Assembly (NCBI GenBank): GCA_963920595.1
Contig: OY986949.1
Location: 744,001-808,000, forward strand
Origin: Eimeria praecox
Lineage: Eukaryota
Reading direction: 5' to 3'
Length of the DNA: 64,000 nucleotides
Part shown: in pieces, positions 6,531 to 49,800 of the stretch
Layout: each line of letters begins with the position of its first letter
How positions within the stretch are numbered: position 1 is the first letter of the stretch
Program-made: the position numbers and the translations under genes
The notes under the pieces: model-generated
Told to the model about the DNA's origin: nothing
The model's database searches: none
The model's input: only the letters and a program-made list of their open reading frames with translations

Positions 6531-9500
6531 CTAGGGCGAAGCGTAGGGTGCTGAGGTAGCCCAAGTCACGATGGACAGACCGTCGCCCACCGGCAGCAAC
6601 ACCTGCACTCCAAGAGACATTTCAGCCTTCCACAGTCGTGCAGACAGCAGCTTTCCCGCAAAGGCAGTTTGCAAGTCGTGGAGAAGCGCATTCGCATGCA
6701 GGCACACAATGACTTGAGAAGACTGAGTGGACGCTATATGAGAGGCAACTCCAACCCTTAACCAAACACTACTTACGTGAGATATACGCCGGTCCTTGCG
6801 CAAAGCCTGTCGCAGTGCCTTAAGCGATTCCGCAATCTTTGCGTATCTTTTGGACCGAGGGGTATCTTCTGTGGCTCCGTCCTCCCACCACGAGATTCTT
6901 TTTCCATCCTGTCCCCTGCCCCATAGGGTATTATCTATTAAAAGGGTCCCATCAGGCGCAAGTAAGGGTCTCTCTGGGTCTAAGATGCATGCGACATACT
7001 CGGCATACTTCTTCTTTTCAGCATCAAGATATATCAGGTCAAACCCTCCATCAGGGAACATGCCGTTTTGCAGAGAAGCATCACTCAATCTGGTCCTTTC
7101 TGATGCCCCTTGCTCGGACAAAGCACTCCTTGCCGCTGTGGGCTGCGCCCCGAGCCACTGCAAGGCGTCAGCCTCCACCACCGTAATCAAATGGCCCCAA
7201 GGGGATGAACTGATGAGGCGACGTGCTGCAGCTGCTGCTCTTGGGTCCTTCTCAATAGCAACAAGGCCGACGCACGCACCGGGGACCCTTTCACGGCATG
7301 CCAGGCCCTCAGCTAAGGCAAGTGCTGCAGGAATCAGGCAGGCAAACAATGCATTGGCAGTGAAGATACATCGCCACGCCATACAAATCTGAGTAGAGGA
7401 AGACGTATGTACATGCTCAATCAAGCAGTGTAGCCACGTTTTAAAATGAAAAGGCCGCTTTAAGGCTACTGGGATGCAGGATGCAAGCAGCAAATATGCT
7501 ACACGAGGGTAACTGCAAAAACGTAAGGACCGTTTCGCTCGAGGTAACATCTAATAAGCCCCACAGGAGATGCCGACGAAGGCCCCAATCTCAAGGATTG
7601 AGTTTGGCCTCTTTAGTCTGCTGATGGCAGAGAGAATGCGCGAGTGCAGGTACCCCGACCAGAACTGGGGGACCCACTTCGCCGCCCCAACAAGGCTCTT
7701 TGCCGTGTTGCGTCCTTCTTCCAAGAGGGCTTCTTGCAGTACAGAGGGGGAGGTCGCAGCAGCCGCCACGTGATGTGCCCATTTCCATAAGTCCTGGGGG
7801 CTGGTTTCCTCAGCAGCCGCACGGCCTTCCTGCTGCAAGACCTTCCCCGCCTCCGAGTCTTCCACAGAAGGCAAGTGGCCTGCACACGCATAGCAGCCTC
7901 CACAATGCAATACACTCAGCCCCTCTACACCTGCAAGTCAGTGAAGTAGTTCAATACGACGCAGTGAAGGGATGCGCCTGTTACGCTTCCCATACACTAC
8001 ATCCAAGGGAAGTGGGCACGTTACCAGCTGGTGATTCAAACGCAGCGTTGTGTTTGAGAGCAGCCAGAAGCTGCTGAGCCCTGATTGCCCACAGTCCCCT
8101 TTGCTGCAGCAGCCTCTTGTGTGTATGTCGGGCCTGCATGCGCCTCTGGATCTGTGCGTGTCTGTCTCTCTCACTGTCCGCTGCCCCATGCTGCGCACAA
8201 GCAGGTGAACAGTAGACCCCGAGGGAAGCGCAGCACGAGGAGCAAAGCACGACACGTCTCCCGCACTGCCTATTGCTGCAGTTTGATAGACGCCCTGAGG
8301 GCCCCCCACAATGAATGCATTGTGCAAGGAGGTCTGGTGTGATCTGCTGGCACATCCGATGGTCGAACACATAGTTGCTCCCCAGAAACAAGCTGCTATG
8401 CGTACACGCGTCCATTTTCCCCGGTTCAGCCTTATCTGCATCTGTCTGTGGCTGGCTTGCCGCAGCGGCTGTGTCGCATCTGGCTCCTTCTTCTCTTGAG
8501 ACGCCGGTAGGCAGCATCGTTTTCTCCGCCGCCAAGGAGGAGCATCCTGAGTCATGGCATGACCCTTTGAGGCTGTGAATGTAGTTTTTGTACGCCAGGA
8601 TACCTCCCTTCAGGCGCGTGACTCGCGGGAAGCCAAGGACTTGCTTGAGGAACGCCCCCGCCTTGACACAGCGGATGCCGCCAGTGCAGTACATTAGGAC
8701 CTCTACATCCTCTCCGCTACCGGTGCTGCTGGATGAAGAGGGCCCGGCATTCCGGGAGGGAAGCTGCACCCCCGCTTGTAGGAGAGCCTCCTCTAGGGGG
8801 CCTCCAGGGGTAAATGAGGCTGCGAACGTTGGGGTGTCTATGCACTTGGCACCCTTGAAGTGGCCTACTGCATACTCACTCGCGTTTCGCATATCCAGGA
8901 GCACTGTTTTCCTTACAGGATATTGTTTCTGCTGTTGCTGCTGTAGCATGTCAGTCAGCTTGTGATGCCATACACTGGGACTCACCTCCTCCCCGCAGTT
9001 TGCCCAATCTAAGGGGGCGGCAAAGCCGTCCCTTAGCACCTGATGCCGTGGCCGGATATGAAGGGCATCGAAAGGTGGAGACCTCCAGTACTCTTCAAAG
9101 GTGACAAGGCAATCGAGGGTCACCTGCAAACCGTCTTCCAGCCCGGGGATCTGTTGCAACTCCCCAAGTAGATCAGACATCGCGATAGACGGCACAGCTA
9201 GTTGGGCGTTGAGCCCCTCCTCTGCCACATAAGCCCTCCCCAGCACACCTTTTGGGCCCCATAGGGCCCTCAGCAGCTCAGCCAGTGCCTTAGGCGATCT
9301 GAAGGGGAAAAATTTGTATAGGGACACCATCTGGTAAGGCGACGCGGTCGTCAAGGTGATGCGTTCGCGGACCGCCGGGATCTTCGAAGCGCCTAAGGGC
9401 GGGGGACTCGCGAAGTCCTGCGCGGTAGTGGAAAACGGAACCGAGGGCAATGGTGGCTCCAGCTGCAAATGTATTGACAACTTAGGTCCCCTAGGGAGAC

Positions 9501-10557
9501 GCAAAATGCGCAGAGTAGCCTCCCTCTTCAAACCATTCTGCCTTCTGACGCGGTCGCTAGCAATGTTGCTGGGGGGCACGCATGATGGGCAATGGGGTAG
9601 GCAGCGGTACTGGGTAAGCAAAGGGCCGTAATGCTCCCGGAGTGTCCTTAGGGCTTCTTCCTCAGACTCCAACGGAAGCAGCTCAGGTACAGGCCCTCCC
9701 TCAGAATCTAAACCACCGTTGGTGTGGAGCTGTCTACCAAGCTGGCTATCCGCTGGGCTGTCTGGTTGCAGTGCAGATCGGCATTTCGTCTTGGGCGCAG
9801 ACACCTGGGCCACAAGCTGCAAAGGTAAGCCCCCGCAGAAGTCCTCTTTCAGTTTAAGAGCCTTAAAAACGGCTTTTCTTAAAGATTCCAACAGGGACGG
9901 TGGAGGCGAGTCGGCTGCAGCTCGGGATGGCAAGGCGGTGTCCTGAGCTTGCAGGGTACCCGCCTGAGCGGCTGCCCCCTTAGAGACGTGCTTCACTCTA
10001 GGATCCTGAAAGGGCCCCAAGAGGCACAGAGGCAGGAAAATATGCCGCTTCTGAGAGCCTCGGAAAAGCCCCAAAGCCCGTCTCGTCTCTTGTGCTATTC
10101 CCACTTCGACAGGAACGACCTCAATCACAAAAGGTGATGCGTCTGTTGCTGGGGCTACAGTTGCAACAACAGGGGCCACCGATAGCTCGGATTCTGCTCC
10201 TTCTGCTCCTGCAAAGTCCAACGGCAACGTATGATAGGCATCTTCTTGGAACACCGAGACTCCGATGCTCCTCTCCCCGCCAACAACCACTGGGGAACTC
10301 TCATCGCTAGCCTGTAGCCAAACACATCTGGGGCATTCAAAGCCCGCAGCTTCGCCGCTTGTGCTGCTGTTGCTGCTGTTGCCGTTTGCACTGGTGGTGC
10401 TACTGAATGCTCTGTGCTGCGCAGACGGGCGCTCGTGGGGACTGGCTTGTGGTAAAAGGGATGGTGACCTTGTAGGCCTGAGAAATCCCCCAGTACGGCT
10501 AAGCTCATTGTGGAGCAGCAACAGCACCAGTAGTAGGCGCACGGGGGTGCTCGGCAT
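6531..10557 (-). CDS. TrhO/UPF0176 rhodanese-family tRNA U34 hydroxylase fused to a C-terminal COMT/CCoAOMT-type (TrmR-like) O-methyltransferase; signal peptide, probably apicoplast-targeted
   Basis: Exons 10557-8025, 7879-7565, 7324-6777 and 6602-6531, all GT-AG and phase-matched. TrhO motifs: SLYKF, GRAYVAEEGLNAQ, LDMRNASEYAVGHFKGA, MYCTGGIRCVKA, LKGGILAY, NYVFDHR and a C-terminal Cys cluster. OMT motifs: ILEIGAFVGISSLALAEGL, AIEKDP, FDLIYLDAEK, GTLLIDNTLWGRG, LLPVGDGL. N-terminus MPSTPVRLLLVLLLL. Confidence 0.85.
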
Positions 10558-11517
10558 TGGCTGCAGCACAGTGAAAATTCAGCTTATGGCCGAACTTGCC
10601 GGTGCTGGAGTTTGCCTGTTCACTGCAGATGACATAATGGCTATGGTTGCGCCCTCTGGTGTTGTTGCTGCTGCTGTTCCAATTTTCCATGTCTCTGCTG
10701 TTGCTGTCCTTCGGCTAACAACTGCCGCCTGGCCTGACAGTCTACTGTCCCCGTTCCTGAAACAAGGCTTTGTATGGAAAGTAGCTCCATGTGTTTATAA
10801 TACCCGCATCCCGACAACTTCTCCACAGCAAAGCAGGAGTAGATGCCTGTCTGTCTTGCAAGCACTAGCCCGCATTGGGAACCCCCGGGCCCCTCAGGGC
10901 CCCTGGGTTTCAGCAAGGGGGTCCGGGGCCCCTGAGCAAACTTACGGAGATCCCGCGCTGTCTTACATGCCCGAGTGTCATCGAAAAGCTTCTTTTTGGA
11001 AAACACAAAGGCAAACTCTTTCCCAGTCCTATATCCGTATCTGTACCAGCACCTTGAAGTTGTGTGGCTGCGGGCATTGCGGGTCAGGCCGAGCCTCACA
11101 ACTCCTGTGAACCACCCTTTCTGCAGAGGCATCGTTTCCCCGTAATTAATCCATTGTATACCCACAAAGATGCTTTAAGCCCTCGATTTTCTTACAAATG
11201 TGGCGGCGGCAGGCCGCGAACAGCAACTGAACCCTGGATTGCCGCTGCAGGCATTTGGGTGACCACGGGACGGAGCAGCAAAACTGCAGAGCAGGCTCAG
11301 CCAGTCCACAAAGCAGAATAGCGACACCGTGAAGGCAAATGACAGCAGCAGAGGCTCTGTTGGAATGGGCAGAGCGAACGGCTGCAGCACTGACTGTCAG
11401 CGCTGCATCTCAACATCGACGACAGAATACACTTCGATTTAGACTAGCCCTTCTTGCCCTACCGATGCTTATCTTTTCAAACCCAAGGTCTATGTTGCAT
11501 ACTATTCAGGCTCTGTA

Positions 11518-14500
11518 ATGTTTGGGCTCCTCGTCTTGTGCTTTGGGGTCCTTGGGCTGCCATTCAGCTGGCCTCTGCGGTTGCACGATGATGCTATCTT
11601 TCCACAGCGGTTGCTTCTGCCCGCCTTCCTTTGGAGTCCCTTAAGGCTTTATCAAAAAGCAGAAGGGGACCTAAGAGTTCTCCCCCTAACAAACTGCGTG
11701 CCACCTCCTTCATGGCTCCCTAGCTGGCCGTACACCCGTCTATGTTACGGTGCCTGGGGGGGCGGGGGACTGTACGGTCCCTACTGCTCTCACGGGAGGC
11801 CCCAGGCAAGTCCTACCATTCGGAATAGGATGATCGGCTTAAGGGTTCTCGCATGCCATGCAGTATCATCAGCACCAGCGGTAGCAGCAGGAACAGCATT
11901 GCGCGCCCCACCACCAGGAACGCCCCTTCCGGAATGCGCCGGCACGCCTCATCCATTGGGGTGCTCCGGGGCATTTGAGGCTGCCCGAAGATGGATTAAT
12001 GCATCCAAACCCATCAGAGAAGCTCACACAGCTGAGGCCCGTCTGAGGGTGCTAATGCAACAGGCGGTGGAAGGGCCCCTCGATGGTGATCCCTCGAAGT
12101 TATCAGAAATGCCACCCGTTCGGGAACGCCAGCGCGCAGAGGGACATAAAATTGATGGACCAGGGGGGCTCAAAACCGACCAGGTAGCAGCAAAGTATTT
12201 AGCCCCTCTGTCCTCCGGTGTCACCCTGTTTGGAGAATCGCGACCCGTTGCAGGCTGCGCAGCGGCGGCCGCCGTGAGAGTGGCCTTGCACTTTCCTGCG
12301 AAGCTTCAGCAAAACGGCATGAGCAACAACATAAACCGATGCTCAGTGGGTAGGAGCAATTCCAGCCGCTTGTGCTGCGCCGCAAGCAGGCAAGGAGCTA
12401 AAGTGTACGTTTGGGGGGAAAGTGACTCGCTTGTTGTTGGCGGTTTGCTTCAGTTGCTATCAGGAAGCCTTAATGGAGGGACTCCGTGTGGGGTATTCTA
12501 TTTGGCCGGCCTAGGTCCCAGCAAGCTGTTGCGCCGTTGTAACTTGCTGGATATGCTGCCGCACACTCGGATTCGGGGCTTTCGGGAGGCTGTTGAACTT
12601 ATTTTGAGTTCCACCTGCGATTTGCTGCAGCGGTGCATCCGCTGTGAAGTAGGCTTGCCGCTGGGGAAGGGGCCTCCTGATTTTAATGGGGTCGAGGGAG
12701 GGATCCCTGTGGGCGCTTCCTGTACTGCATCCAAACCGGACTGGGGAGAAACAGAATCACCCATGCTACCGACAACAACAGCGCCAGACACTATACCAAC
12801 ATCCGTGAAGAGGGGGACGGGAGACGGTCGTACTGATGGCGCGCAAGAGTCTCTTGGGGAGTTGTCAGACCCTTTCACACTTTCAGCAAACAAAAGAGGA
12901 CCTTATCTGCGACAACGTGGAGAACCAGAACCAGCTGTGTTGAAGGAGCGTAGTCGTGCGGCGCTTCCCCTTGGTGGTGGCGTTGGCTCAGAGGTGCACG
13001 TGCTGGTCTCTGGGGGAGTTGATTCTGCTGTATCTTTGCTCCTCATGCGCGAATGGGGCTTCAGAGCCAAGCCTGTTTTCCTCAAGGTCTGGGCCCCAGA
13101 AGCCGCCCAACTGAAGGGACAGCTGCGTTCCCAGCACCATGAAGGGACGCTTGCTGTTGCAGCCGCTGCAGCGGCAGCTGCAGCAGCTTGCCCGTGGCGC
13201 GAAGATGCTGAGTCGGCAGCGGCAGTGGCTGCTGCAGCAGGTTTGCCCCTTGAGGTGTTCCCCATGCAGCAGCAGTATTGGGACAGGGTCATCGCTACCT
13301 TCATAGAAGGAGCTCGGTGAGTTCTTATCTGCGCAGCGTCCAAGCCATAAGCTAGGGTCTGTGCCACTCGCCTAACTGTTAGAAGAGCAGATACCCAAGT
13401 CAATAATGAGTACTCAATGCGTATCACGTATACTGTGTCGAAGGTCGGGCTTGACTCTTAACCCAGACTGGAGCTGCAACTCCCTAGTGAAATTCGGGGC
13501 CTTTGCGCAGACTCTTGGTGATGTAGACTCTCCAATCGTCTCCGGCCATTATGCGAGGATCCAAATGGATGGAGGTAGGTAATAGGCCTTTGGAAGGTGG
13601 CAAGGCATCGTTAGTGAGGGTTCCTTTGAGAACTACCTATATGGCGCGCAGCAAATGCACCTGCTGCTTTCGTTGCAAGCATTGCGGAGACAAGAGCGGC
13701 TGCACCTCCCTTGTTCTTCGTAGCTAAATTCTGGGAATTCGCGCAGAAATGGAGCAGGTGCACCCGCGCTGACAGCACTGAATTGCTTCAACGCTTGCAG
13801 GCCTTTCATGTTGATGCTGTTGTCGCTTGTGTGTGTGCCGCTCAGGGACTCCCCGGTTACTCAGGGGGAGAGACTTGGCAAAGGATCAGTCTTACTTTCT
13901 TTCTGGTTTGTCCACCCAGCAACTGTCTCGTTCCCTGTTCCCTGTGGGCGCCCTCTTGAAGAGCCAGGTAAAGCTGTAGAGCCTTCTGTTGCTCTACTTA
14001 GTCATTAAATCCCCGAGGAGGCAAAAAAGACAGCACCAGCCCGTTGCTCTGCTGCTGCGCGTCGTGATTTATTGCAGGTGCGGAAGCTGGCAGCCGACTG
14101 GCACCTGCCTTCTTCACAGAGGCCGGATAGCCAAGGCCTCTGCTTTTTGGGGCCGTTGCCAGTGGGTCAGTTTCTGATGCACCTGCTGGGAGAGAAGGAA
14201 GGCCCCATTTTTCATTTTCCATCAGGAGCCCTTGTTGGCCGTCACAAAGGCCTTTGGGCATTTACTGCAGGCCAGCAAAAGGGGGTCCTGCCTCTCTTGG
14301 ATCCCCGCTTATGCAGACGCTGCGTAGGAGCAGGTGGCGTCCCTCCAACACTTTCAGGACCTTGGAGTGTAGTGGGCAAGGTGCCTGAAGCCAACGCCCT
14401 TTTTGTAGTCAGCAAAGAGGAGGAAAGAGCAGCGGAAGACTGTGTCCGGATTCTGGCAACTGAAGCCAGGGATTCCCCTAAGTGCAGCGGTGGCCCCCTC

Positions 14501-15067
14501 CTAGAGGCTGCTACAAAGACCGACCGAAGGGCCCTTCTCGCATTGGCACTTAGACAGCTAAGAACTTGTTTAAGGGTGGACAACGTAAGGTGGTTTAAGG
14601 GAGAAGCCCCCCCGGAGTTCGCTGCTTCTGCTGCTGCTCATGGGACGCCCTTCCGCAGCGACGGTTCTATCGTAGCAGCCGTTGCAGCAAGTATGGTCGC
14701 TGCTGCAAGGGAAGGTGCTCCAGTGCTTGTTGCGAAGCCTGCGAATGATACTTTAATAAAAGACACCAACGAAGGGGTAGGGCTCGTTGTGCAGGTGAGA
14801 CACAGCGCAGGCTTTCATGGAGTGGCAAAGCACAAATTCAAGGTTTTGTGGGCGTCAGAGGGGCCTTCACAGGAGAGACTCTCAGGAAGCTCGTCATGTT
14901 TTTCTGTTCCTCATGAAGCGGAGTTGTTGCTGGAGGAGCCCGATATAGGCCTCGCCCCTGGGCAGATTGCCGCCTTTTATAGGGGTGAGGAGTGCGTGGG
15001 CTCGGCGCGAATTTCTCCCTTGCAGGGCTTACCGGTATTGAAGGGTATCCTGGACAAGGGGAATTGA
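11518..15067 (+). CDS. mnmA: tRNA U34 2-thiouridylase MnmA with N-terminal SufE-like domain; signal peptide, probably apicoplast-targeted
   Basis: Exons 11518-13316, 13444-13574, 13846-13967 and 14078-15067. Motifs: [12 protein letters not shown] (PP-loop), [53 protein letters not shown]. SufE-like segment: VAGCAA…[15 protein letters not shown]…LPHTRIRGF. Confidence 0.92.
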
Positions 15068-25171: not shown

Positions 25172-27225
25172 TCGCAGGGTCATTGTAGTATTAGCATCTT
25201 GCCTCATTGTCCAACTTACAGGCAGCGAAATGGGCCCCATAAGCGCATATAAAACAAATGTTTTTACACTCTCCTGCCGACGTGCGGTAATAGCATAGGT
25301 ACTTTGGGTTCTTGTAAGCTGTTTCCTCGGATAGTACGTAGAGACAGCGCTGTCTATGCTTGCGTTTGCGAGCCTGTTTTCGATCGTGGCTCCAGGAAGA
25401 ACGGCGCATATCAGAGGCTGAGAGGTATCGCCTGCAGCACGAATATTGGCTGCTGGCCTAGACAGCAGGAGGGGGCATGGCTGTTTCTGCCAGGTGCATC
25501 CTTGCGTTTAGTGTATTCTGGTTATCTGCTGTCCCAAGTACTGAGTTTTTCTTGACTCCCATTTGCTACGATGTGCGTAGTGACATTATGTAGCAGTTGC
25601 CACCATTGCAGAGGGAGTCCTCACTGTAGTTTCTCTGCCTTTAGGGCATCCCTAGACAGCATCGAGCAGGTTTACGGTGGCATGAAGCATATAGACGGTC
25701 CAAGGGAATGGTTGAATCGTGTTTTGTGGCAACTCGAAAGGAGTGGGCCGTCGAAGGGCGGATGGGGGTCTACTAACTCTGCTACTAACCCTAAGTACAG
25801 AGTTCATTATCAGCAGCAGCTAAACAGTTTTCGAACGTTCAGTCCTTGGTTTCTTTACGAGGCTGCCGAGTAGCAGTGCATAGATTAAAGGACTGGTTTT
25901 CGGTGGTATGCGCCTCCCCAAGCTGCTTTTCTGATGAGAGCTTTCCATACAACGCTCATGGAACAGTTTGCAGGCGAAAGGGTAATCTCGTACTGAAGTG
26001 TTGATTCTGGTCATGGGGTCGGGATGGGGCACAGCTGTTTCTGAGTTGTTTGAACATCGGCAACCCAGCGACTCTTGATACTGTTCTAAGGAATACGGTT
26101 GAACAGGAACGGAATAGTGAGGCAGCCATATAGGAATCCGTACGGTTGACGAAGAGTTGCAGAAGCGAAGGGCCAGCCACTGGGCAGATGAAGAAGACGT
26201 GCTGTAAGTTCATCTAAGGCTGCAGCGCTGTTTGGGTGATTTCTGCACCATCAGAGGCATCCTGTTTAAGCTGCCATTCTCATACCTTCAGCCTTTTTAT
26301 CTTACACGAAGGTAAGCAGTGGGAAAGGAGCACACAAAGCTTGCTACATTTAGAATATAGGAATGTAGCGCATATGCTTACAGAAACAGCCACGTCAATT
26401 TATGGTAGCCGCGAAGTCGTATAAAGAACAGCAAGCGGTTCATCTACTACTGTGCATCTGCAGGCACAATGCTTCCACTAGCACTGGCGAGTAGGCGCTA
26501 ACCGAGCGGGAAACCTACGAGTCAAGATGCGTTAATCGTAAAACCACATAGAAGTGACCAGCACCATACTGGTGACTGTAAAGTACACTAAAGTGGGCGG
26601 ATGGTGCTCAGCATGGCAGCTGTCGCACATCAGCCAGCGAGCCCGAGGCAGTAATTGGATGTGGGAACTGAAAAAGAAGGCCGGCTTATATGTCTAGCTC
26701 TTCAAACCCTCACAGTGTATTGTATTTCATGTTAGTGTTATATATGTGAGGAAGCAATGCGGGAGTATGGAGAACAGCAAAGAAGAATTGGTCTGCTCTT
26801 AGTGCCGAGGCCTTGCTGGTCCACTGGGCGTATTCTCGGTTGCTCACTGTGCATTTTGATCTTGAAAGTCCTGTCTCCTGGCGTTCATGTAGTGGTATTG
26901 ATAAAACTAAACAAAAATGTTGAAGCCTTGAAAGCTGAATATCGAACTCGTTCAATGCATGGAAGGCGTGCTAGCTTGCGGAGGGCAGTGCGCAGCATGA
27001 GGGTCTACGGCGCCTTTACTGGTCTGCTGTCGGCTGCACCAGTGAACAAGAAGAAGACAAGTGGCCATTGAAACTAAATTAGAATAGTCTTACATGCATT
27101 TTTCAGGGCACATTTGCTGGCATATTTGCCCTTTTCGTGTATTTAGCCTTGCAGAGAATCGGAATCGGAAGAGACGGGTCCAAAGTACGCTTATGGGCTG
27201 AACGGAGGACGAAACAGCACTGAAA

Positions 27226-28917
27226 ATGGCTTTGCTTCCAATTTTGCTCATCTTTACTTATTCCCTTTTGCTTCTCGGGGCTCAATCAGTTAAATGGAAC
27301 AATCGAATAAGCTCTCTTATGTCTCCTGAATACGTCTCGGCCTTGGGGGCTAAGGAAGCTGCCCGGCGAGCGAGCGACAGTCATATCGAGGCTTCAAAAT
27401 TGAGAGGAGAGACCCTCTCTGCTCACTCTTTAGTTCAACAATGGGCGGAGAGACAGCACCAGTTGTCTTCTGCAGGAGGCACTATTCCTCAGTTAGGGGT
27501 TGCCGCAGAATCCGAATGGGACTACAAGGAGCACGGGGCTGACTGGACACAAGGGAAGTGCAAAACAGGCACACGCCAATCGCCTGTTGATCTGCACATT
27601 GAGGGCTTGGAAGAACCGCCTCAAAAGAACATGACACAGCTTTATGTGAGCGCTTTCTCTGGTGAGCGAGCAGCCTCGATGCCTTCCAAGCTGTGGAAGA
27701 AAGGCGACTTCTTTTACACCTATCCTAACCAGCTGAGCAATGTCTTGTTGTATAGAACAGATAAGGTATTTCAACTTCGTTCTGCTGGAGAAGGTCTTGT
27801 TCCCCTAGGGGCAATGTTTGGCTCGGACACGACCGAGATGTTCGTTGCTCATCAGATTTTGTTTCATTCTCCCAGTGAGCATACATTTCAAGGAGCAGCC
27901 AACAGACGGGAGATAGAGATGCAAATATGGCACTATTCTAATGATCTGCTGTCAATGGAAGCCAGCAAGAGTGTAAACGTCACTTCTCTCCCCTACTTGG
28001 CGCTCTTCGCCCAGAGTAGCGTCAACCTGCCTGAAGTTGAACGAGCGGTGGCTGAGAACAGCAAAAATGGACGGGACCCTTCTCTTCCTTCTTCGCATTG
28101 GAGAGTTATTTCTTTGACCTTCATGAGCGAAGAACTCGACCAAGCAAGCCTTGAGGAACTGAGGGGACTCCCATCAGAAAAACTCTTGAGAACGCTACTG
28201 ATGGCAGACATCTCAAACAAACGAACGCAAGGTACGTTGCAAAAACAAGCCACTTCTGTTCAAAAACGTATGCCGCTTTGTCCGTGTTGGGGGAATGTGT
28301 TGTTTTGGTCTTTCTTGCTGTGGCATACCCCGTCTACCGGACGATTCAGAAGCTTTGCCGATTCCCTTGAGGGAAATGCTTGACAATTTGCACTCTGTGT
28401 GCTTTTTCTTGCCTGTCTTCAGGAGAATCCGAGCTGCTTGAGCTTCCTCACCCATTGAACCTGCAGTCGTTGATGATGATGCATGATGATGCTACAACTG
28501 ACAAATCAGGAGTTCTTTGCTTACGACGGGAGCCACACTATGCCTGGATGTGAAGAGAATGTAAGGTGGTATGTGGCGCGCCAGCCTTTGCCTGTAGCTA
28601 CAGACACCATGCTGAGGTTCTATAAAATGTTAAATCCCAAGACTCTTAAATCGGTTAAAGAAAAAGATGGGAACTTTCGCCAGCTGCAAAACGTTGAAGG
28701 CAACATGCACAACGATGGGAACGTTTTCTTAGTGCAGGGCTTTCCTCTGCAAGTGCTCATTGCAGATAGTCTGGGGTTTACAAACATGTCAGACCAGGCA
28801 GAGGTCAATGCCAGCACGTTCCAGGGATGGTTTCAAGAGAGCAGCGCAATTTCTGTGCCAGTTTGCTTGCCCTTGGTTGCAGTTTCCATGTCACTTTTTG
28901 TGGGTTTGACGTTGTAA
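27226..28917 (+). CDS. Alpha-carbonic-anhydrase-related protein with signal peptide and C-terminal hydrophobic (GPI-like) tail
   Basis: Exons 27226-28231 and 28423-28917. Motifs: WDYKEHGADW, CKTGTRQSPVDL, FHSPSEHT, EIEMQIWH, YDGSHTMPGCEENVRW, NFRQLQ. A 10-bp duplication at 28473-28492 shifts the frame. Confidence 0.88.
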
Positions 28918-31064: not shown

Positions 31065-33612
31065 TCAGACATCGGTTTCCTGGTTTCTCAGTTCCGGACG
31101 GTCCTTTTGGTCTTTCTTTGACTTTGCCTGTTGCTCCTTCTTCTCCTGTGCCGCAAGCCTTTTTTCCTCTGCTTCCTGCTTGGCCATATCCCGAGCTGCC
31201 TGTGGCCAGAAGGGATGTGGGTCCGCGCGCTTCTTACACAAGAGCAGCAGCAGCACAAGGAAGTTGATGCCGCAAAGCACCAACATAATCAGACAGGGGT
31301 AGTAATAGACAGAATGGAAAACCTCCACAACAAGCTTCTGCATGGGGATTTTCAACAGCGAAAGGAAGCCGGCTATCAAGTGAATAGTCCCCACAATCTT
31401 TCCGAAGTGAGAGGACGAGAACGTGTCGGACACGAAACAGTAGCTCTGTGAGCTGTAAAAGGATACGTAACAAATATAAAGGATAGCTGAAAAATACGCA
31501 GTAGGCAGCGCTGGAATCATGCTGAACCCATACGCCAAGGTTATGCAGGTATTCAGGAAGAACAAAATGGGCATGATGCCAACCATGTCTACGACCTTGC
31601 CTATTACCTAAAATGATTCAAAAACACACGCAAGAACCCTTAAGAGCTGCAGGCACTCCAGCCATGAGCCTATTAAACTCTATTCTATAAAGCACAACGT
31701 GGATGATATCCGCATAAAGGAAGTGTTCTCTGTACTCTACTTGTTGTGTGCGAACATATATCTATTCGTTCCGCACTTACAATGCACGGGAATAGGGAGA
31801 AGGGCAAGGCAGCTCCCATGAAGTCGTTGACCTCCTTTCCGAGTAGATTTTCGGCCGCCGTGGTGAAAAAGGCATACATGATAGCTTTAATGATAGAGTA
31901 GACCACGATATAGATGGCATAGGGCGACGTGAATTGTTTAATGAACGAAGCGGGCTTCTCTTCTCTACCTGCAGCTAGCTGGTCTAGCGTCTCTGCGTTC
32001 CCGGCACCTCCCGTTGCTACGCTCATTCGCGTTGCTTGGTAAATAGCTGGCACCTCTTCCGTTTCGTCAGCGACGGGCGGGTTGTTCGCAACTTTATTTT
32101 GCTTGTCATCTTGAGTTTTCTTATTCTCGTCTACTCCTCACCTTCAGACATGGTCTTCTTTCCCTGTTCCCTGGCAGCCCCCTGACGAGGCACATCAAGG
32201 AAATTTTTGCTCCTGCGGCCTGGTTCGGAAGAAGTGGCCCCCGAATGCCCGTCGTGTCCATAAAGCGGCCACTGCCCTTCATGAAAACTGCTGAAGCTGT
32301 CGCGCCATGCGTGGGCTTCTATGGAGGCAAACGAGTCGTTGACCCTTTGGATAGGATGATGGTAGTCACCACCCTGTTCCATTTCCGTAAATTCGTTCCA
32401 GGGCTTGAAATGCTTATAGGGGATTAAAAATAAGGATACGATGAAGCACAACCCTGAAAAGCGCCCCAAACAGGAACATGGTATGCTCCTCAATATGATT
32501 CCGCTACATGGCAGTGGGTGTATCATGAAAGACCTAGTAGTGCGCTCGTGTAGGGAAGGAACGAACAGCACGAAGCACGCAGAGGAGCGTTAACTCAGAT
32601 GCAGTGCTTCTGAAAACCCCCGCAAGAGCAAGAACACATGATCGACGTAAGCATAGGACAAAGCACTCAAAAATAACATTGAACGCACCTGGTCCCATAA
32701 GAGCATAGCCTAGGCAAACCTCTCTCAGGCCTATACCAGGATTGGCCACCTCTATCTTGTCCAAAATTGTAGGGACAGCGAAACTGGCGCTCTTGGACGC
32801 TCCGAGAATGGCCACAATTAGCCTGCAAAACGACCATGAACGGATGGAAACGAAATAGGGGAATAGCACAAGAGAGCATACCCCGGAGCACTAGGCGGGT
32901 AGAACCACAAGGTGGAAGGTGAAACTACTCTCGAACTAAACCGACCGTATACCGTACCCTTCGTGTCCAGGGAAGAGGTTGGCTGACGAGAGAAGGGGCA
33001 AATACCCTATATCTGACCCTATGCCCATAAATATGAATGCCGCTATGTACGTTTGTGCCGACTCGGATCCGAAGGCAAGCAATACCCAGGCAAGCGCGTT
33101 CATGAGCTGGCCTACAGCAGCTGTTATGCGCGGCCCCAGGTAATCAAGCAGGAGACCGGCAGCGAGGGAGAAGGAGAATGCAAAGGCCAAGCATGTTACA
33201 AATATATTTCCAACTGCTGAATTCTGAGCCTCACATATGTACCTCTTCCCCCCATGTATTGGCTCTCTCATATCTGGGTTCCCCTCCGCCAGGTATTGGT
33301 CGCACAGCCAGGCATAGGCGTTAGACCTGAAGAGCAAATTTGAGAGGTTGGCCAGGCGAAGTATACACGAGCCGTCAAAAACGCGTAGATAACATACGTC
33401 ACCAGCACAAAATAACGCCCAACTCCACAAGGTTTCCGCTGCGTCTTTGCAGCCAGGACTGCGGGTGTGTTCTCCACGTGAGCTATTGCCCCCTGTAGCA
33501 GCTTGCGAAAGAATCCCAAGAATCCCTTCTTCCCGTTGCCCTCAGAAGAGGCCGAAGCGTTGCTGGAGCCCCCATTTGGCCGGCTCGGCAGCTTAGCCGC
33601 GGGAGCTGGCAT
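31065..33612 (-). CDS. Apicomplexan amino acid transporter (ApiAT/NPT, MFS fold)
   Basis: Multi-TM exons: YFAWPNLSNLLFRSNAYAWLC, ICEAQNSAV, AGLLLDYLGPRIT, SANLFPG, SFIKQFTSPY, DTFSSSHFGKIVG. Apparent 1-nt frameshifts near 33350 and 32135. Confidence 0.85.
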
Positions 33613-46879: not shown

Positions 46880-49800
46880 GAAAATTTTAAGTACAGCTGG
46901 GTTTTGGAGGGGCAGGCTGCTTCCTCTGAAAATTATCAATTAGTTTTTGAGTGACGGAGTCCCAACTCCTGAGGCACGCCCTTTTTGTGAGAGCCACTCG
47001 CTTTCACGCGTCTTAAGAGCGCACTTTATACGACCAAGTAGGGCGTCGAATTATTGTATCATAAAAGTATCATATCATGCAGGCTTTGGAACATTCGAAC
47101 GAGATCACCCGCCGCTCCGAAGTCTTCTTTTGCCCCTATAGGCTACATGAAATCCCCAGAGTTTTTGGCTAAGGCGAAAACAGTCGGCATTAATTCCACG
47201 CTGCATAACCCATGCTGAACATTCTGAGATCCCAAGTCTCTGCATGAGTGCCATCTTGTTGTGAGCTATTACGCACTCTTTAAAGGATAACTGCTTCTAA
47301 GCTAACCTCCTAAATATAAATGAAATTAAATTTCTTCTCTTGCAGTGCAGCCAAGGGATCTATATACTAATGCCTGTACTGTTACCCGATATCCTTGAGC
47401 TTCGTACTGTTTTTCGAGGCTTTGATATTTCTCATCTTTTTGTAGACGGGCTGCTCCGAGAGAGTTCTTCTTGTAGTCCTCAAAGACGACCCCCATATCC
47501 ACTGTTGCCAAGTCCTTACGCTTGTCATCTCGAAGAATAATATCTGGCCTTAAGAGTGTGTCCATGCCTTCAGGGCAGGCGTCGATTTGGAGCTTCTTGC
47601 TCCTATTCTTCGCGCTGCTCTTGATTGCTGCTGTAATCCTCTCCAATGCCTTGTTATGTCGGTCTTTGATCTTGCTATCCATGTGATGAGGGCAGTGGTT
47701 GAGGACATGCCGTAGGATATCCAAGTCCTCTGTGCAGTGGCGGCATCGCGATGCCTTTGAGACCTTAATCTTCTACAGGTATGCTCGTGTGCGGAGTTCT
47801 GCAGACCGTGCTCTCAAGGCGAAGATGGCCTCGTTCGGCTTCAGACAGGTGGGGCCTCTCAAGAAAGCATTGCTCTCTGCTGTCTGGTAGGCCCCTAACT
47901 TCCTTTGATCTACCTTTTCCTTCCACACGTCTCGTTGCCACTCCGGTATATGCTGCTTGATGCTTTTAATGATATGCTTCTGATCAAATTCGGAGCCATC
48001 TGTTCGCTGAGCAACATAGCTACCGTTCCTTCTAGTCTCGATGAGCGCCTTGCTCATCCATATCTCCCTGGAAGCTCCGACCATAAGCTTCGAACACCCA
48101 CCAATTTGCCTCTCTTCTTCAAGCAGCCCAAGTCGCGCCCGTTGAGGTAGGCAATAATCGCTTCCCAGTCGCTCTTGCCACTCTCAGGTGTGTAGATGAA
48201 AGCTTTGTTGATGATTTCCAGCAGCTGGCCTTCTGCAATCGCTCGAATCACGCTGTATGAACTGTTGAGCATTTGTACAGCATGATCTATCTGTGTTGCA
48301 GTTGCGGTCATGATGAGGGAAATACACCGAAGACCACCATGTGAGGTGGGCTGGTGAAACATCTCAACGACAGTACTCTTTGAAAACTTGAAGGTAACCT
48401 TTAGAAAAGAGCGTATATTACGATCGAATGCAATCATCTGCTGTCTGTAAGGATAACAGTACCTGAGATGATAGTCAAGACGATACATCACGAAAGCGCT
48501 AATCGCATCAAGTTTCTGCCAGGGGAGGAGTGCTGACCTCAGGAGCTTGGCAATGTCCTTCTTCGCCATGCTCATGGCTCGAAGGATTTGGTTTTGATGC
48601 ACTAAAGATTCCAGTGCACCCTTAACGCCCAGGTACTTGTACGCCTTCCCTAGCTTGACCACTGGCAAGACCTCGTTGTGGAGCTTCAGCTGCACCGGAT
48701 CGGGCTGTTGTCGCTTCTCTCCCCGCTTCCATCCCAGTATAGCACATTTGGACGGTTTGGCCTCTAATCCTGTCCACTGGAGGAAGCGCACCACCGGTTG
48801 ACGAAGTGTAGAAATTCCTGCTCGAGTGCTAGCAACCGTCTTGAGGTCGTCTGCATATGCCATCTGGTAGACCTTCACCGGCTGTTTCCCGACCGTCATA
48901 CGCAGTACGAGGCCTGCATCACAAGCTGATAATCTCTGCAGGAAGACTCCATGGATAGGTTAAAGAGGATCGGGCTGAAAGGATATCCTTGCTTCACTCC
49001 TTGTCGGTTCTCAATTCGTCCTGTGCAGCCCACCTTCATCACGAGGCAGAAGCTCCCTCCTTGATAGAGATCCATGATGATCTCGCAAACGTGCTTTGGT
49101 AGCCTTTGAGCCTTCAAGACAGCCTGTCTGAACTCGTGGGGGACATATCCAAATGCACTTTTCAAGTCGTAGTATGCCATGTACAGCGGTTTGTTGCCTC
49201 CGCTTGGAGTTGAGGATGTTTTGGGCAAGAAGTAGGTGCTCGTGGCACCCATTCACTGGCAAGAAGCCCTTCTGCGACTTTGAGGCGACCCAGGACTGTA
49301 CTGCCCAGTCCGTAATCCTGCTGGCCCACAGTTCTGCGTAAAGTGTGTAGATACAGTCCTGTAGATTGATGGGATTCCAACCCTTCACATCGTTAGGACC
49401 GCCCTGCTTGGGAATCAAAACGGCCACGCTTTCCCTCCACTTCTCTGGAGTACACCGATGGCGAGAGCACGCATTGTATATCGGTGTCATGGCTGGAACA
49501 AGCACTCGTCGAACCTCTTGTACACAAAGAACCCTATCCCATCTGGCGCTGCTGCAGACTTGAGGTTGCTCTTTGGCAGCTGAGAATGCACATCCTCTTC
49601 TGTAAAGTATAGATCAATCGCATACGCTCCACTAGGAGCTGAAGCCAAAGCGCCTAAGAACTCATGAGCAGCACTAGAAGTGGAATCAATTGATTGCTCA
49701 GAGTGCTGATCTCGAAAGCCTGCCTCCAGCTCACTGAGTTGGATGGGACAATCTTGGCTTGCAGGTTGATCTTCGACAGCTAGTAGTTGCTCCACACACT

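What the first reader, a model, noticed from the sequence alone, without database searches (positions are those of the whole stretch)
6531..10557. Spliced TrhO + O-methyltransferase fusion: a possible one-protein 5-methoxyuridine (mo5U34) pathway for the apicoplast
Seen: a 145-nt GT-AG intron (8024-7880, phase 1 at both ends) joins the TrhO ORF in frame (…FESPAG|HLPSVED…) to a complete COMT/CCoAOMT-type methyltransferase; a signal peptide is present. Known: bacterial TrhO hydroxylates U34 to ho5U, and Bacillus TrmR, a methyltransferase of this family, converts ho5U to mo5U. Inference: a Rosetta-stone fusion implying mo5U in organellar tRNAs, which would extend wobble decoding for a minimal tRNA set. 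I do not know of this being characterised in apicomplexans.
Basis: partly seen in the sequence, partly recalled or inferred. Interest (0 to 1): 0.78.

Follow-up and report, generated by a model that had tools for sequence, protein, structure and literature searches.

The report
Coccidian tRNA hydroxylase-methyltransferase fusion gene
This spliced Eimeria gene joins a TrhO-family tRNA hydroxylase to an O-methyltransferase, a fusion already noted in 2019 in a diatom and oomycetes; it is predicted to enter the parasite's relict plastid and likely makes 5-methoxyuridine on wobble bases generally assumed to be unmodified in organelles, which is untested.

Summary
The fusion is real. The gene has four exons, not two, and the model equals the annotated Eimeria praecox protein (1155 aa). 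Spliced contigs skip all three introns, and one runs from the TrhO active site into the methyltransferase. All six TrhO residues that E. coli needs are kept. The leader is signal peptide, Phe, basic stretch: apicoplast-like.

The fusion is not new. Sakai 2019 noted trhO-trmR fusions in Phytophthora and Phaeodactylum, and this scan met it six times on other DNA. I found it in red algae, ochrophytes, oomycetes, Vitrella, Besnoitia and 11 eimeriids.

The methyltransferase is not a Firmicute TrmR orthologue: it is closer to other PF01596 enzymes and lacks R90. It keeps TrmR's R178 position (11 of 11 eimeriids, 1 of 15 stand-alone controls).

Added here: the apicomplexan copy, a PB1-fold domain in red-lineage copies, and a head-to-head position with apicoplast-type SufE-MnmA.

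Best reading: a one-protein U34 to ho5U to mo5U synthase for apicoplast tRNAs (0.55). I found no test of it in any eukaryote.

The parts
8025..10557 (-). Exon 1: leader, PB1-fold domain and whole TrhO domain (aa 1-845)
7880..8024 (-). Intron 1, 145 nt, GT-AG, phase 1; joins TrhO to the methyltransferase
   Evidence: skipped by contig X1 record 3
7565..7879 (-). Exon 2: methyltransferase N-terminal helices and SAM motif I (EIGAFVG, aa 941-947)
7325..7564 (-).
   Evidence: skipped by contig X5 record 14
6777..7324 (-). Exon 3: methyltransferase core with E974-K975, D1050-x-x-K1053, D1080-N1081 and basic helix K1108-R1109-x-x-K1112
6603..6776 (-).
   Evidence: skipped by contigs X1 record 2 and X2 record 7
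6531..6602 (-). Exon 4: last beta-hairpin of the methyltransferase and stop codon
10363..10557 (-). Predicted bipartite leader: signal peptide (aa 1-24), Phe at +1, then a basic, Ser/Thr/Pro-rich, acid-poor stretch
   Evidence: hydropathy heuristic; hydrophobic stretch followed by small residue plus F/Y in 9 of 13 eimeriid proteins
9460..10128 (-). PB1-fold (beta-grasp) domain with low-complexity insertions, aa 144-366; found in red-algal, ochrophyte and apicomplexan copies, not in the named oomycete copies
   Evidence: fold match made on homologues P0081 and P0137
8188..9336 (-). TrhO domain, aa 408-790: UPF0176_N, rhodanese with CTGGIRC at C624, and eight conserved C-terminal cysteines
11518..15067 (+). 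Head-to-head neighbour: SufE-like plus MnmA tRNA U34 2-thiouridylase with a hydrophobic N-terminus; start codons 961 bp apart; inner exon borders not mapped
   Evidence: Toxoplasma MnmA with SufE is apicoplast-located (PMC9420914)

Best explanation
A four-exon nuclear gene encodes one protein with a TrhO domain and a PF01596 O-methyltransferase domain; it is predicted to be imported into the apicoplast, where the TrhO domain likely hydroxylates wobble U34 of family-box tRNAs with O2 and the methyltransferase likely converts the product to 5-methoxyuridine with SAM. Shown: splicing, fusion, domain identity, catalytic residues, conservation. Inferred: localisation, both activities, and that mo5U34 helps one tRNA read all codons of a box. 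The methyltransferase looks like a non-orthologous TrmR stand-in that has a similar basic surface for tRNA phosphates. The gene probably came with the red-algal plastid (inferred from the tree and the shared PB1-fold domain).
For: Splicing. TrhO: best NCBIfam family is TrhO. E. coli K112, R114, C200, T201, G203, R205 (needed per Sakai 2019) align to R502, R504, C624, T625, G627, R629. C624 is kept in 121 of 121 aligned fusions and R629 in 120 of 121. Top fold hit is B. subtilis TrhO bound to tRNA. Methyltransferase: D133 and K136 in 86 of 86, D159-N160 in 83 of 86 fused domains. The R178 position, which Ryu 2018 calls TrmR-specific, is R in 63 of 82 fused domains, 11 of 11 eimeriids, 3 of 3 TrmR orthologues and 1 of 15 stand-alone controls; mean net charge of the helix is +2.3 against -1.4. 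Position 86 is R/K in 42 of 86 against 0 of 15. Both domains occur together in 88 of 123 and 59 of 117 retrieved proteins, in red algae, ochrophytes, oomycetes, Vitrella and Besnoitia. Targeting: leader pattern in 9 of 13 eimeriid proteins; coccidian TrhO falls in the red alga, ochrophyte and Vitrella subclade (SH-aLRT 93); the neighbour is SufE-MnmA.
Against: 85 of 86 fused methyltransferases are closer to stand-alone non-TrmR enzymes than to TrmR. The profile scores 97 bits on SynOMT and 92 on PaMTH1 against 60 on TrmR. Foldseek ranks TrmR 26th. In the tree the fused domains mix with stand-alone enzymes, apart from TrmR. R90 is absent in 86 of 86. R178 is missing in several oomycete and red-algal copies; a motif-anchored recount gave 51 of 85, with 59 of 144 fused rows unanchored. 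The sequences are related, so these counts are not independent. P0001 scores 120.7 bits against the TrhO cut-off of 170. Oomycete copies have mitochondrion-like leaders, so the family is not plastid-only. Four of 13 eimeriid models lack the hydrophobic leader (probably truncated models, not checked). Organelles are reported to read family boxes with unmodified U34. The only Toxoplasma protein described as rhodanese in the hyperLOPIT tables is mitochondrial (TGME49_314422, 621 aa); I did not compare its sequence, so it may or may not be the orthologue.
Confidence: 0.55

Rival explanations
1. The TrhO domain hydroxylates apicoplast tRNA, but the methyltransferase acts on a small molecule (a catechol or phenol) or nothing; the product stays ho5U.
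For: Sequence, tree and fold place the domain with CCoAOMT-like enzymes; the metal triad is intact; R90 is absent.
Against: The fusion is kept from red algae to coccidia and oomycetes. The R178 basic helix sets fused domains apart from the stand-alone controls. ho5U methylation is the known next step after TrhO in Bacillus.
Confidence: 0.2
2. The chemistry is as proposed but the compartment or RNA differs: mitochondrion (imported tRNAs), dual targeting, or another RNA or position.
For: Named oomycete copies have Arg-rich leaders without a hydrophobic stretch. A Toxoplasma rhodanese-domain protein of unknown relation is mitochondrial. No localisation data exist for this protein in what I read.
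Against: Signal plus F/Y plus basic leader in 9 of 13 eimeriid proteins; red-lineage placement and PB1-fold domain; apicomplexan mitochondria encode no tRNAs (recalled, no call).
Confidence: 0.17
3. The rhodanese domain serves as a sulfur carrier for the neighbouring SufE-MnmA thiolation pathway instead of as a hydroxylase.
For: Rhodanese fold with an active-site Cys; head-to-head with SufE-MnmA.
Against: Full TrhO architecture with the CTGGIRC loop, the basic beta-sheet residues and the Cys-rich tail; a homologue's model matches TrhO at Z 29.5 against 12.9 for the best plain rhodanese.
Confidence: 0.05
4. TrhO and the methyltransferase are separate genes, or the main transcript retains intron 1 and ends at the 7981 stop.
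For: An in-frame stop lies inside intron 1; some depth remains over the intron in X1.
Against: Contig X1 record 3 is spliced across the junction and spans from the TrhO active site to motif I; depth over the intron bin is 3.75 against 12.5-13.6 beside it; 11 eimeriid annotations and many algal proteins are fused.
Confidence: 0.03

Closest known systems
yceA(trhO)-trmR fusion genes of Phytophthora sojae, P. ramorum and Phaeodactylum tricornutum (Sakai et al. 2019, PMC6599085)
   Same: Same domain order; same eukaryotic clade in the TrhO tree (Phytophthora ramorum P0082 and diatom copies).
   Different: Apicomplexan host; long low-complexity insertions; apicoplast-type leader and PB1-fold domain, both absent from the named oomycete copies. 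In the passages I read the paper used the fusion only as a clue and did not test it.
Bacterial TrhO (E. coli YceA; B. subtilis TrhO, PDB 9j5o)
   Same: UPF0176_N, rhodanese CTGGIRC and Cys-rich tail; all six essential residues kept; the Vitrella copy is 43% identical to E. coli TrhO over 204 aa.
   Different: Fused, nuclear-encoded, spliced; CVK instead of CEK after the loop; activity untested.
Bacillus subtilis TrmR (YrrM, PDB 5zw3/5zw4; Ryu et al. 2018, PMC6158493)
   Same: PF01596 fold; E85, D133, K136, D159, N160 kept; K at 86, R at 178, K at 181.
   Different: Not orthologous: about 27% identity against 34% to Bacteroidota stand-alone enzymes; R90 absent, with R one place earlier; TrmR proper is confined to Firmicutes per Ryu.
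Cation-dependent small-molecule O-methyltransferases (SynOMT 3cbg, PaMTH1 4ymg, SafC 5lhm, CCoAOMT 1sui)
   Same: Best sequence and fold matches for the methyltransferase domain; same metal triad.
   Different: They are stand-alone, and six solved examples read by eye have no Arg at the 178 position.
Apicoplast U34/C34 modification enzymes MnmA, MnmE, MnmG and TilS of Toxoplasma and Plasmodium
   Same: Nuclear-encoded, bacterial-type wobble modifiers for the apicoplast tRNA set; an MnmA gene is the direct neighbour here.
   Different: They act on split-box tRNAs or the CAU tRNA; an xo5U route for family boxes was not mentioned in the passages and searches I made.

Membership tests
TrhO (tRNA U34 hydroxylase) | UPF0176_N + rhodanese + Rhodanese_C architecture | tested here: met
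   All three Pfam families over cut-off
TrhO (tRNA U34 hydroxylase) | Essential loop residues C200, T201, G203, R205 | tested here: met
   C624, T625, G627, R629
TrhO (tRNA U34 hydroxylase) | Basic tRNA-binding sheet K112, R114 | tested here: met
   R502 and R504; R/K in 110 and 116 of 121 aligned fusions
TrhO (tRNA U34 hydroxylase) | NCBIfam equivalog NF001133 cut-off, 170 bits | tested here: inconclusive
   Best family but 120.7 bits, split by insertions; compact homologue P0015 passes at 171.8
TrhO (tRNA U34 hydroxylase) | O2-dependent ho5U34 formation on tRNA | not testable with these tools
   Needs enzymology or complementation
TrmR (Firmicute ho5U methyltransferase) | Membership of the TrmR sequence cluster within PF01596 | tested here: not met
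   1 of 86 fused domains closer to TrmR than to stand-alone controls; separate in the tree
TrmR (Firmicute ho5U methyltransferase) | R86 | tested here: inconclusive
   K975 here; R/K in 42 of 86 fused, 2 of 3 TrmR orthologues, 0 of 15 controls
TrmR (Firmicute ho5U methyltransferase) | R90 | tested here: not met
   Ala here; R/K in 0 of 86 fused, but R/K one place earlier in 41 of 86
TrmR (Firmicute ho5U methyltransferase) | R178 | tested here: met
   R1109; 63 of 82 fused, 1 of 15 controls, by register from the conserved helix end
TrmR (Firmicute ho5U methyltransferase) | SAM-dependent ho5U34 to mo5U34 methylation | not testable with these tools
   Needs LC-MS
PF01596 cation-dependent O-methyltransferases | SAM motif I, acidic residue after strand 2, D-x-x-K and D-N metal ligands | tested here: met
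   EIGAFVG, E974, D1050, K1053, D1080, N1081
Eukaryotic TrhO-methyltransferase fusions (Sakai 2019) | TrhO then PF01596 in one polypeptide, within the eukaryotic fused clade | tested here: met
   all 73 fused rows lie in one clade of 77 rows, SH-aLRT 92, no bootstrap
Nucleus-encoded apicoplast proteins | Signal peptide followed by a basic, acid-poor transit peptide, often with an aromatic residue at +1 (rule recalled) | tested here: met
   Heuristic only; 4 K/R against 1 D/E in the 40 residues after Phe25
Nucleus-encoded apicoplast proteins | Shown localisation to the apicoplast | not testable with these tools
   No orthologue could be identified in the hyperLOPIT tables
PB1 domain | Beta-grasp fold of about 85 residues | tested here: met
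   Homologue P0081 residues 41-146 match Cdc24, Par6 and NBR1 PB1 at Z 9.3-9.5, rmsd 2.2-3.5 over 82-93 residues; same strand and helix order in P0001
PB1 domain | Pfam PF00564 sequence profile | tested here: inconclusive
   2 of 59 members, best E 0.04

The most novel reading that the evidence does not exclude
Coccidian apicoplasts, and red-lineage plastids generally, do not rely on unmodified-U superwobbling: one PB1-bearing fusion protein installs bacterial-type mo5U34 using a methyltransferase recruited independently of TrmR, and in Eimeria it shares a divergent promoter with MnmA so that both U34 pathways of the organelle are co-expressed.
Probability: 0.4. Interest if true: 0.7.

Novelty: new member of a known kind. 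Interest (0 to 1): 0.42.

Why it matters
Organelles with small tRNA sets are generally said to read four-codon boxes with unmodified U34. Sakai 2019 suggested xo5U in eukaryotes, and a 2023 review had no functional data for human TSTD2. A coccidian copy moves that open question into parasites where apicoplast tRNA modifiers are already studied by knockout. A positive result would add a wobble modification to the apicoplast's minimal translation system and show a second origin of ho5U methylation. The fusion itself is already known, so the surprise is moderate.

Tried and rejected
No genome is held for the window, so copy number, a second TrhO paralogue and synteny of the MnmA pairing could not be checked. 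No listed run is on record as RNA; raw junction reads were not obtained, so splicing rests on contigs. The profile search returned only eimeriids. No Toxoplasma or Plasmodium protein appeared by name; only 20 of the 150 hits were looked up, the library holds one representative per 50% cluster, and two searches were length-limited, so this is no evidence of absence. Only 2 of 95 fetched loci held both domains, both as fused eukaryote-like ORFs; no bacterial trhO with a neighbouring methyltransferase was seen, but many loci are short. TGME49_309100 was not among the rows shown from the hyperLOPIT table (first 15 places per term) and not in the paper search, so synteny in Toxoplasma is open. The Dorrell 2017 supplement, which may list the ochrophyte copy as plastid-targeted, could not be read. 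The Atlas feature search put many PF01596 clusters at 0.95-0.96, including TrmR-named ones, and did not separate them. The Fisher test is not used, as rows are related. Nine coding differences between X1 and the window (3 synonymous, 6 not) say little. VIA second look on the P0001 model was never run. Rows dropped: 4 of 108 methyltransferase domains under 170 aa, 14 partial or near-duplicate rows before the tree; the TrhO tree used 107 hand-picked or sampled rows and lacked E. coli TrhO. Literature searches that found no test of this fusion or of mo5U in apicoplasts; subscription papers are not covered.
Full report
Gene structure. The minus strand holds a long ORF from ATG 10557 to a stop at 7981 with the three Pfam domains of TrhO, and a separate ORF with PF01596. 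A four-exon model (10557-8025, 7879-7565, 7324-6777, 6602-6531; three GT-AG introns of 145, 240 and 174 nt) gives 1155 residues identical to P0001, which NCBI names a conserved hypothetical protein of Eimeria praecox. In one search, contig X1 record 3 covers 7565-7878 and 8024-9004 without letters between, X5 record 14 skips 7325-7564, and X1 record 2 and X2 record 7 skip the third intron; the small offsets are base ambiguities. X6 is contiguous. X1 record 3 reaches from the CTGGIRC codons (8688) to the SAM motif (7592). These runs are only guessed to be RNA and are contigs, but precise loss of three GT-AG introns is hard to explain otherwise.

TrhO half. Sakai 2019 (PMC6599085; passages and the first part of the Discussion read) found C200, T201, G203, R205, K112 and R114 needed for hydroxylation. 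Aligned with E. coli TrhO these are C624, T625, G627, R629, R502 and R504. Across 121 aligned fusions C624 is invariant and each of the eight tail cysteines is kept in 103-105. TrhO is the best NCBIfam family, below its cut-off (120.7 against 170 bits). The AlphaFold model (mean pLDDT 73) finds B. subtilis TrhO with tRNA first.

Methyltransferase half. SAM and metal ligands are intact. By descent it is not TrmR. The family profile scores SynOMT 97, PaMTH1 92 and TrmR 60 bits; 85 of 86 fused domains are closer to stand-alone enzymes than to three TrmR orthologues, identified by their place next to mltG and udk or a U32 peptidase; the tree keeps TrmR apart and mixes fused and stand-alone domains (SH-aLRT only). 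Ryu 2018 (PMC6158493; abstract, passages and Discussion read) names R86, R90 and R178 as TrmR-specific. Using the 5zw3 numbering, the window protein has K at 86, A at 90 (R at 89), R at 178 and K at 181. R178 occurs in 63 of 82 fused domains with that helix, 11 of 11 eimeriids, 3 of 3 TrmR and 1 of 15 stand-alone controls; R90 in 0 of 86. A second, motif-anchored count on a wider set gave 51 of 85, with 59 rows unanchored; Vitrella and Besnoitia have R178, several oomycetes and red algae do not. The control set is small and the rows are related. I read this as a TrmR-like basic surface on a non-TrmR scaffold: it works like TrmR probably, but is not a member.

Distribution and origin. Both domains occur in 88 of 123 proteins and in 59 of 117 new ones. 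Named carriers are 11 eimeriids including Cyclospora, Besnoitia (BESB_005890), Vitrella, four red-algal entries, pelagophytes, a diatom and six oomycete genera or species. In the TrhO tree all 73 fused rows lie in one clade (SH-aLRT 92), next to bacterial TrhOs; coccidia lie in a subclade with red algae, ochrophytes and Vitrella (93), oomycetes outside it. Red-lineage copies carry an extra N-terminal domain that six named oomycete copies have no room for (the eimeriid matches to that profile are weak, E 0.0004-0.2). In homologue P0081 it matches PB1 domains at Z 9.3-9.5, in P0137 at TM 0.55-0.6, and P0001 shows the same strand and helix order at residues 144-366. Its role is unknown; self-association or RNA binding are guesses.

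Targeting. P0001 begins with a hydrophobic stretch, a predicted cleavage before Phe25 and a basic, acid-poor, Ser/Thr-rich stretch; 9 of 13 eimeriid proteins show this pattern, four lack it. The aromatic +1 rule for complex plastids is recalled. Oomycete copies have Arg-rich leaders without a hydrophobic stretch, so the family probably serves mitochondria there. The gene lies head to head, 961 bp between start codons, with a SufE-like plus MnmA gene; the Toxoplasma gene of that build is apicoplast-located (PMC9420914, passages). Whether the pairing is conserved could not be checked. In the hyperLOPIT tables (PMC7670262, supplement rows) the only protein described as rhodanese is a 621-aa mitochondrial one whose relation to this family I did not test.

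Mechanism. Most likely the imported protein binds the anticodon arm of family-box tRNAs through the basic sheet, hydroxylates C5 of U34 with O2 at the CTGGIR loop, and passes the tRNA to the methyltransferase, which holds the backbone with K975, K1053, R1109 and K1112 and methylates the hydroxyl with SAM. In bacteria xo5U34 improves reading of G- and U-ending codons. Structure and residues are shown; localisation and activities are inferred. Joint confidence 0.55.

What is known. Sakai 2019 states that yceA and trmR are fused in Phytophthora sojae, P. ramorum and Phaeodactylum tricornutum and suggests xo5U in eukaryotes. Papers on apicoplast tRNA modification describe superwobbling with unmodified U and cover TilS, MnmA, MnmE and MnmG (PMC12069591 and bioRxiv 2024.12.21.629855, passages); a Plasmodium tRNA modification review has no occurrence of mo5U, ho5U, TrhO or TrmR (PMC12002611, term count only). 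PMC11571807 (passages) gives the general view on organelles; PMC10135228 (passages) reports no data for human TSTD2; PMC10219651 and PMC5462543 were seen as search listings only. Nine searches found no test of the fusion and no mention in apicomplexans. This scan has six earlier notes on the same fusion in other genomes; they agree and are not independent support.

Verdict. A real, expressed-looking, intact gene and a new member of a known but untested kind. Interest 0.42: the apicomplexan copy, the R178 surface, the PB1-fold domain and the MnmA pairing make an open question testable, but the fusion idea is from 2019.

Noticed in passing
window 11518-15067 (+): SufE-like plus MnmA tRNA thiouridylase gene with a hydrophobic N-terminus, divergent from the fusion gene; two U34-modifying genes share about 960 bp of upstream DNA. 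X1 contigs end at 10864 and begin at 10871 between them, which contigs cannot prove to be transcript starts.
   Followed up: partly
window 9460-10128 (-): PB1-fold domain ahead of TrhO in red-algal, ochrophyte and apicomplexan copies; no Pfam family covers it at cut-off.
   Followed up: yes
P0124 (Lagenidium): Annotated protein with two TrhO units before one methyltransferase, preceded by a nucleotidyltransferase-like region; may be a merged gene model.
   Followed up: no
P0214, P0217, P0227, P0238: Proteins with the methyltransferase domain and no TrhO; P0214 and P0217 carry it twice in tandem, and P0214 keeps the R178 position. Possibly a split form of the fusion.
   Followed up: no
P0015, P0017, P0023, P0025-P0034: Pelagophyte-type fusions lack the Cys-rich tail of TrhO (no PF12368) while keeping the catalytic loop.
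   Followed up: no
L099:1992-2975: A Bacteroides stand-alone PF01596 gene, of the type closest to the fused domain, lies between pyk and rbfA.
   Followed up: no
P0019-P0022: A second, unfused TrhO-like family in diatom-type proteins, apart from the fused clade in the tree (used as outgroup).
   Followed up: partly
window 27202-28914 (+): Carbonic anhydrase-like gene in at least two exons.
   Followed up: no
window 32939-33541 (-): Weak MFS transporter match.
   Followed up: no
window 48057-48959 (-): Weak reverse transcriptase match (E 0.00045, below cut-off), probably a retroelement remnant.
   Followed up: no
window 8929: A 6-nt in-frame insertion at the poly-Gln tract in one X6 contig, possibly repeat-length variation or a mis-laid repeat contig.
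   Followed up: no
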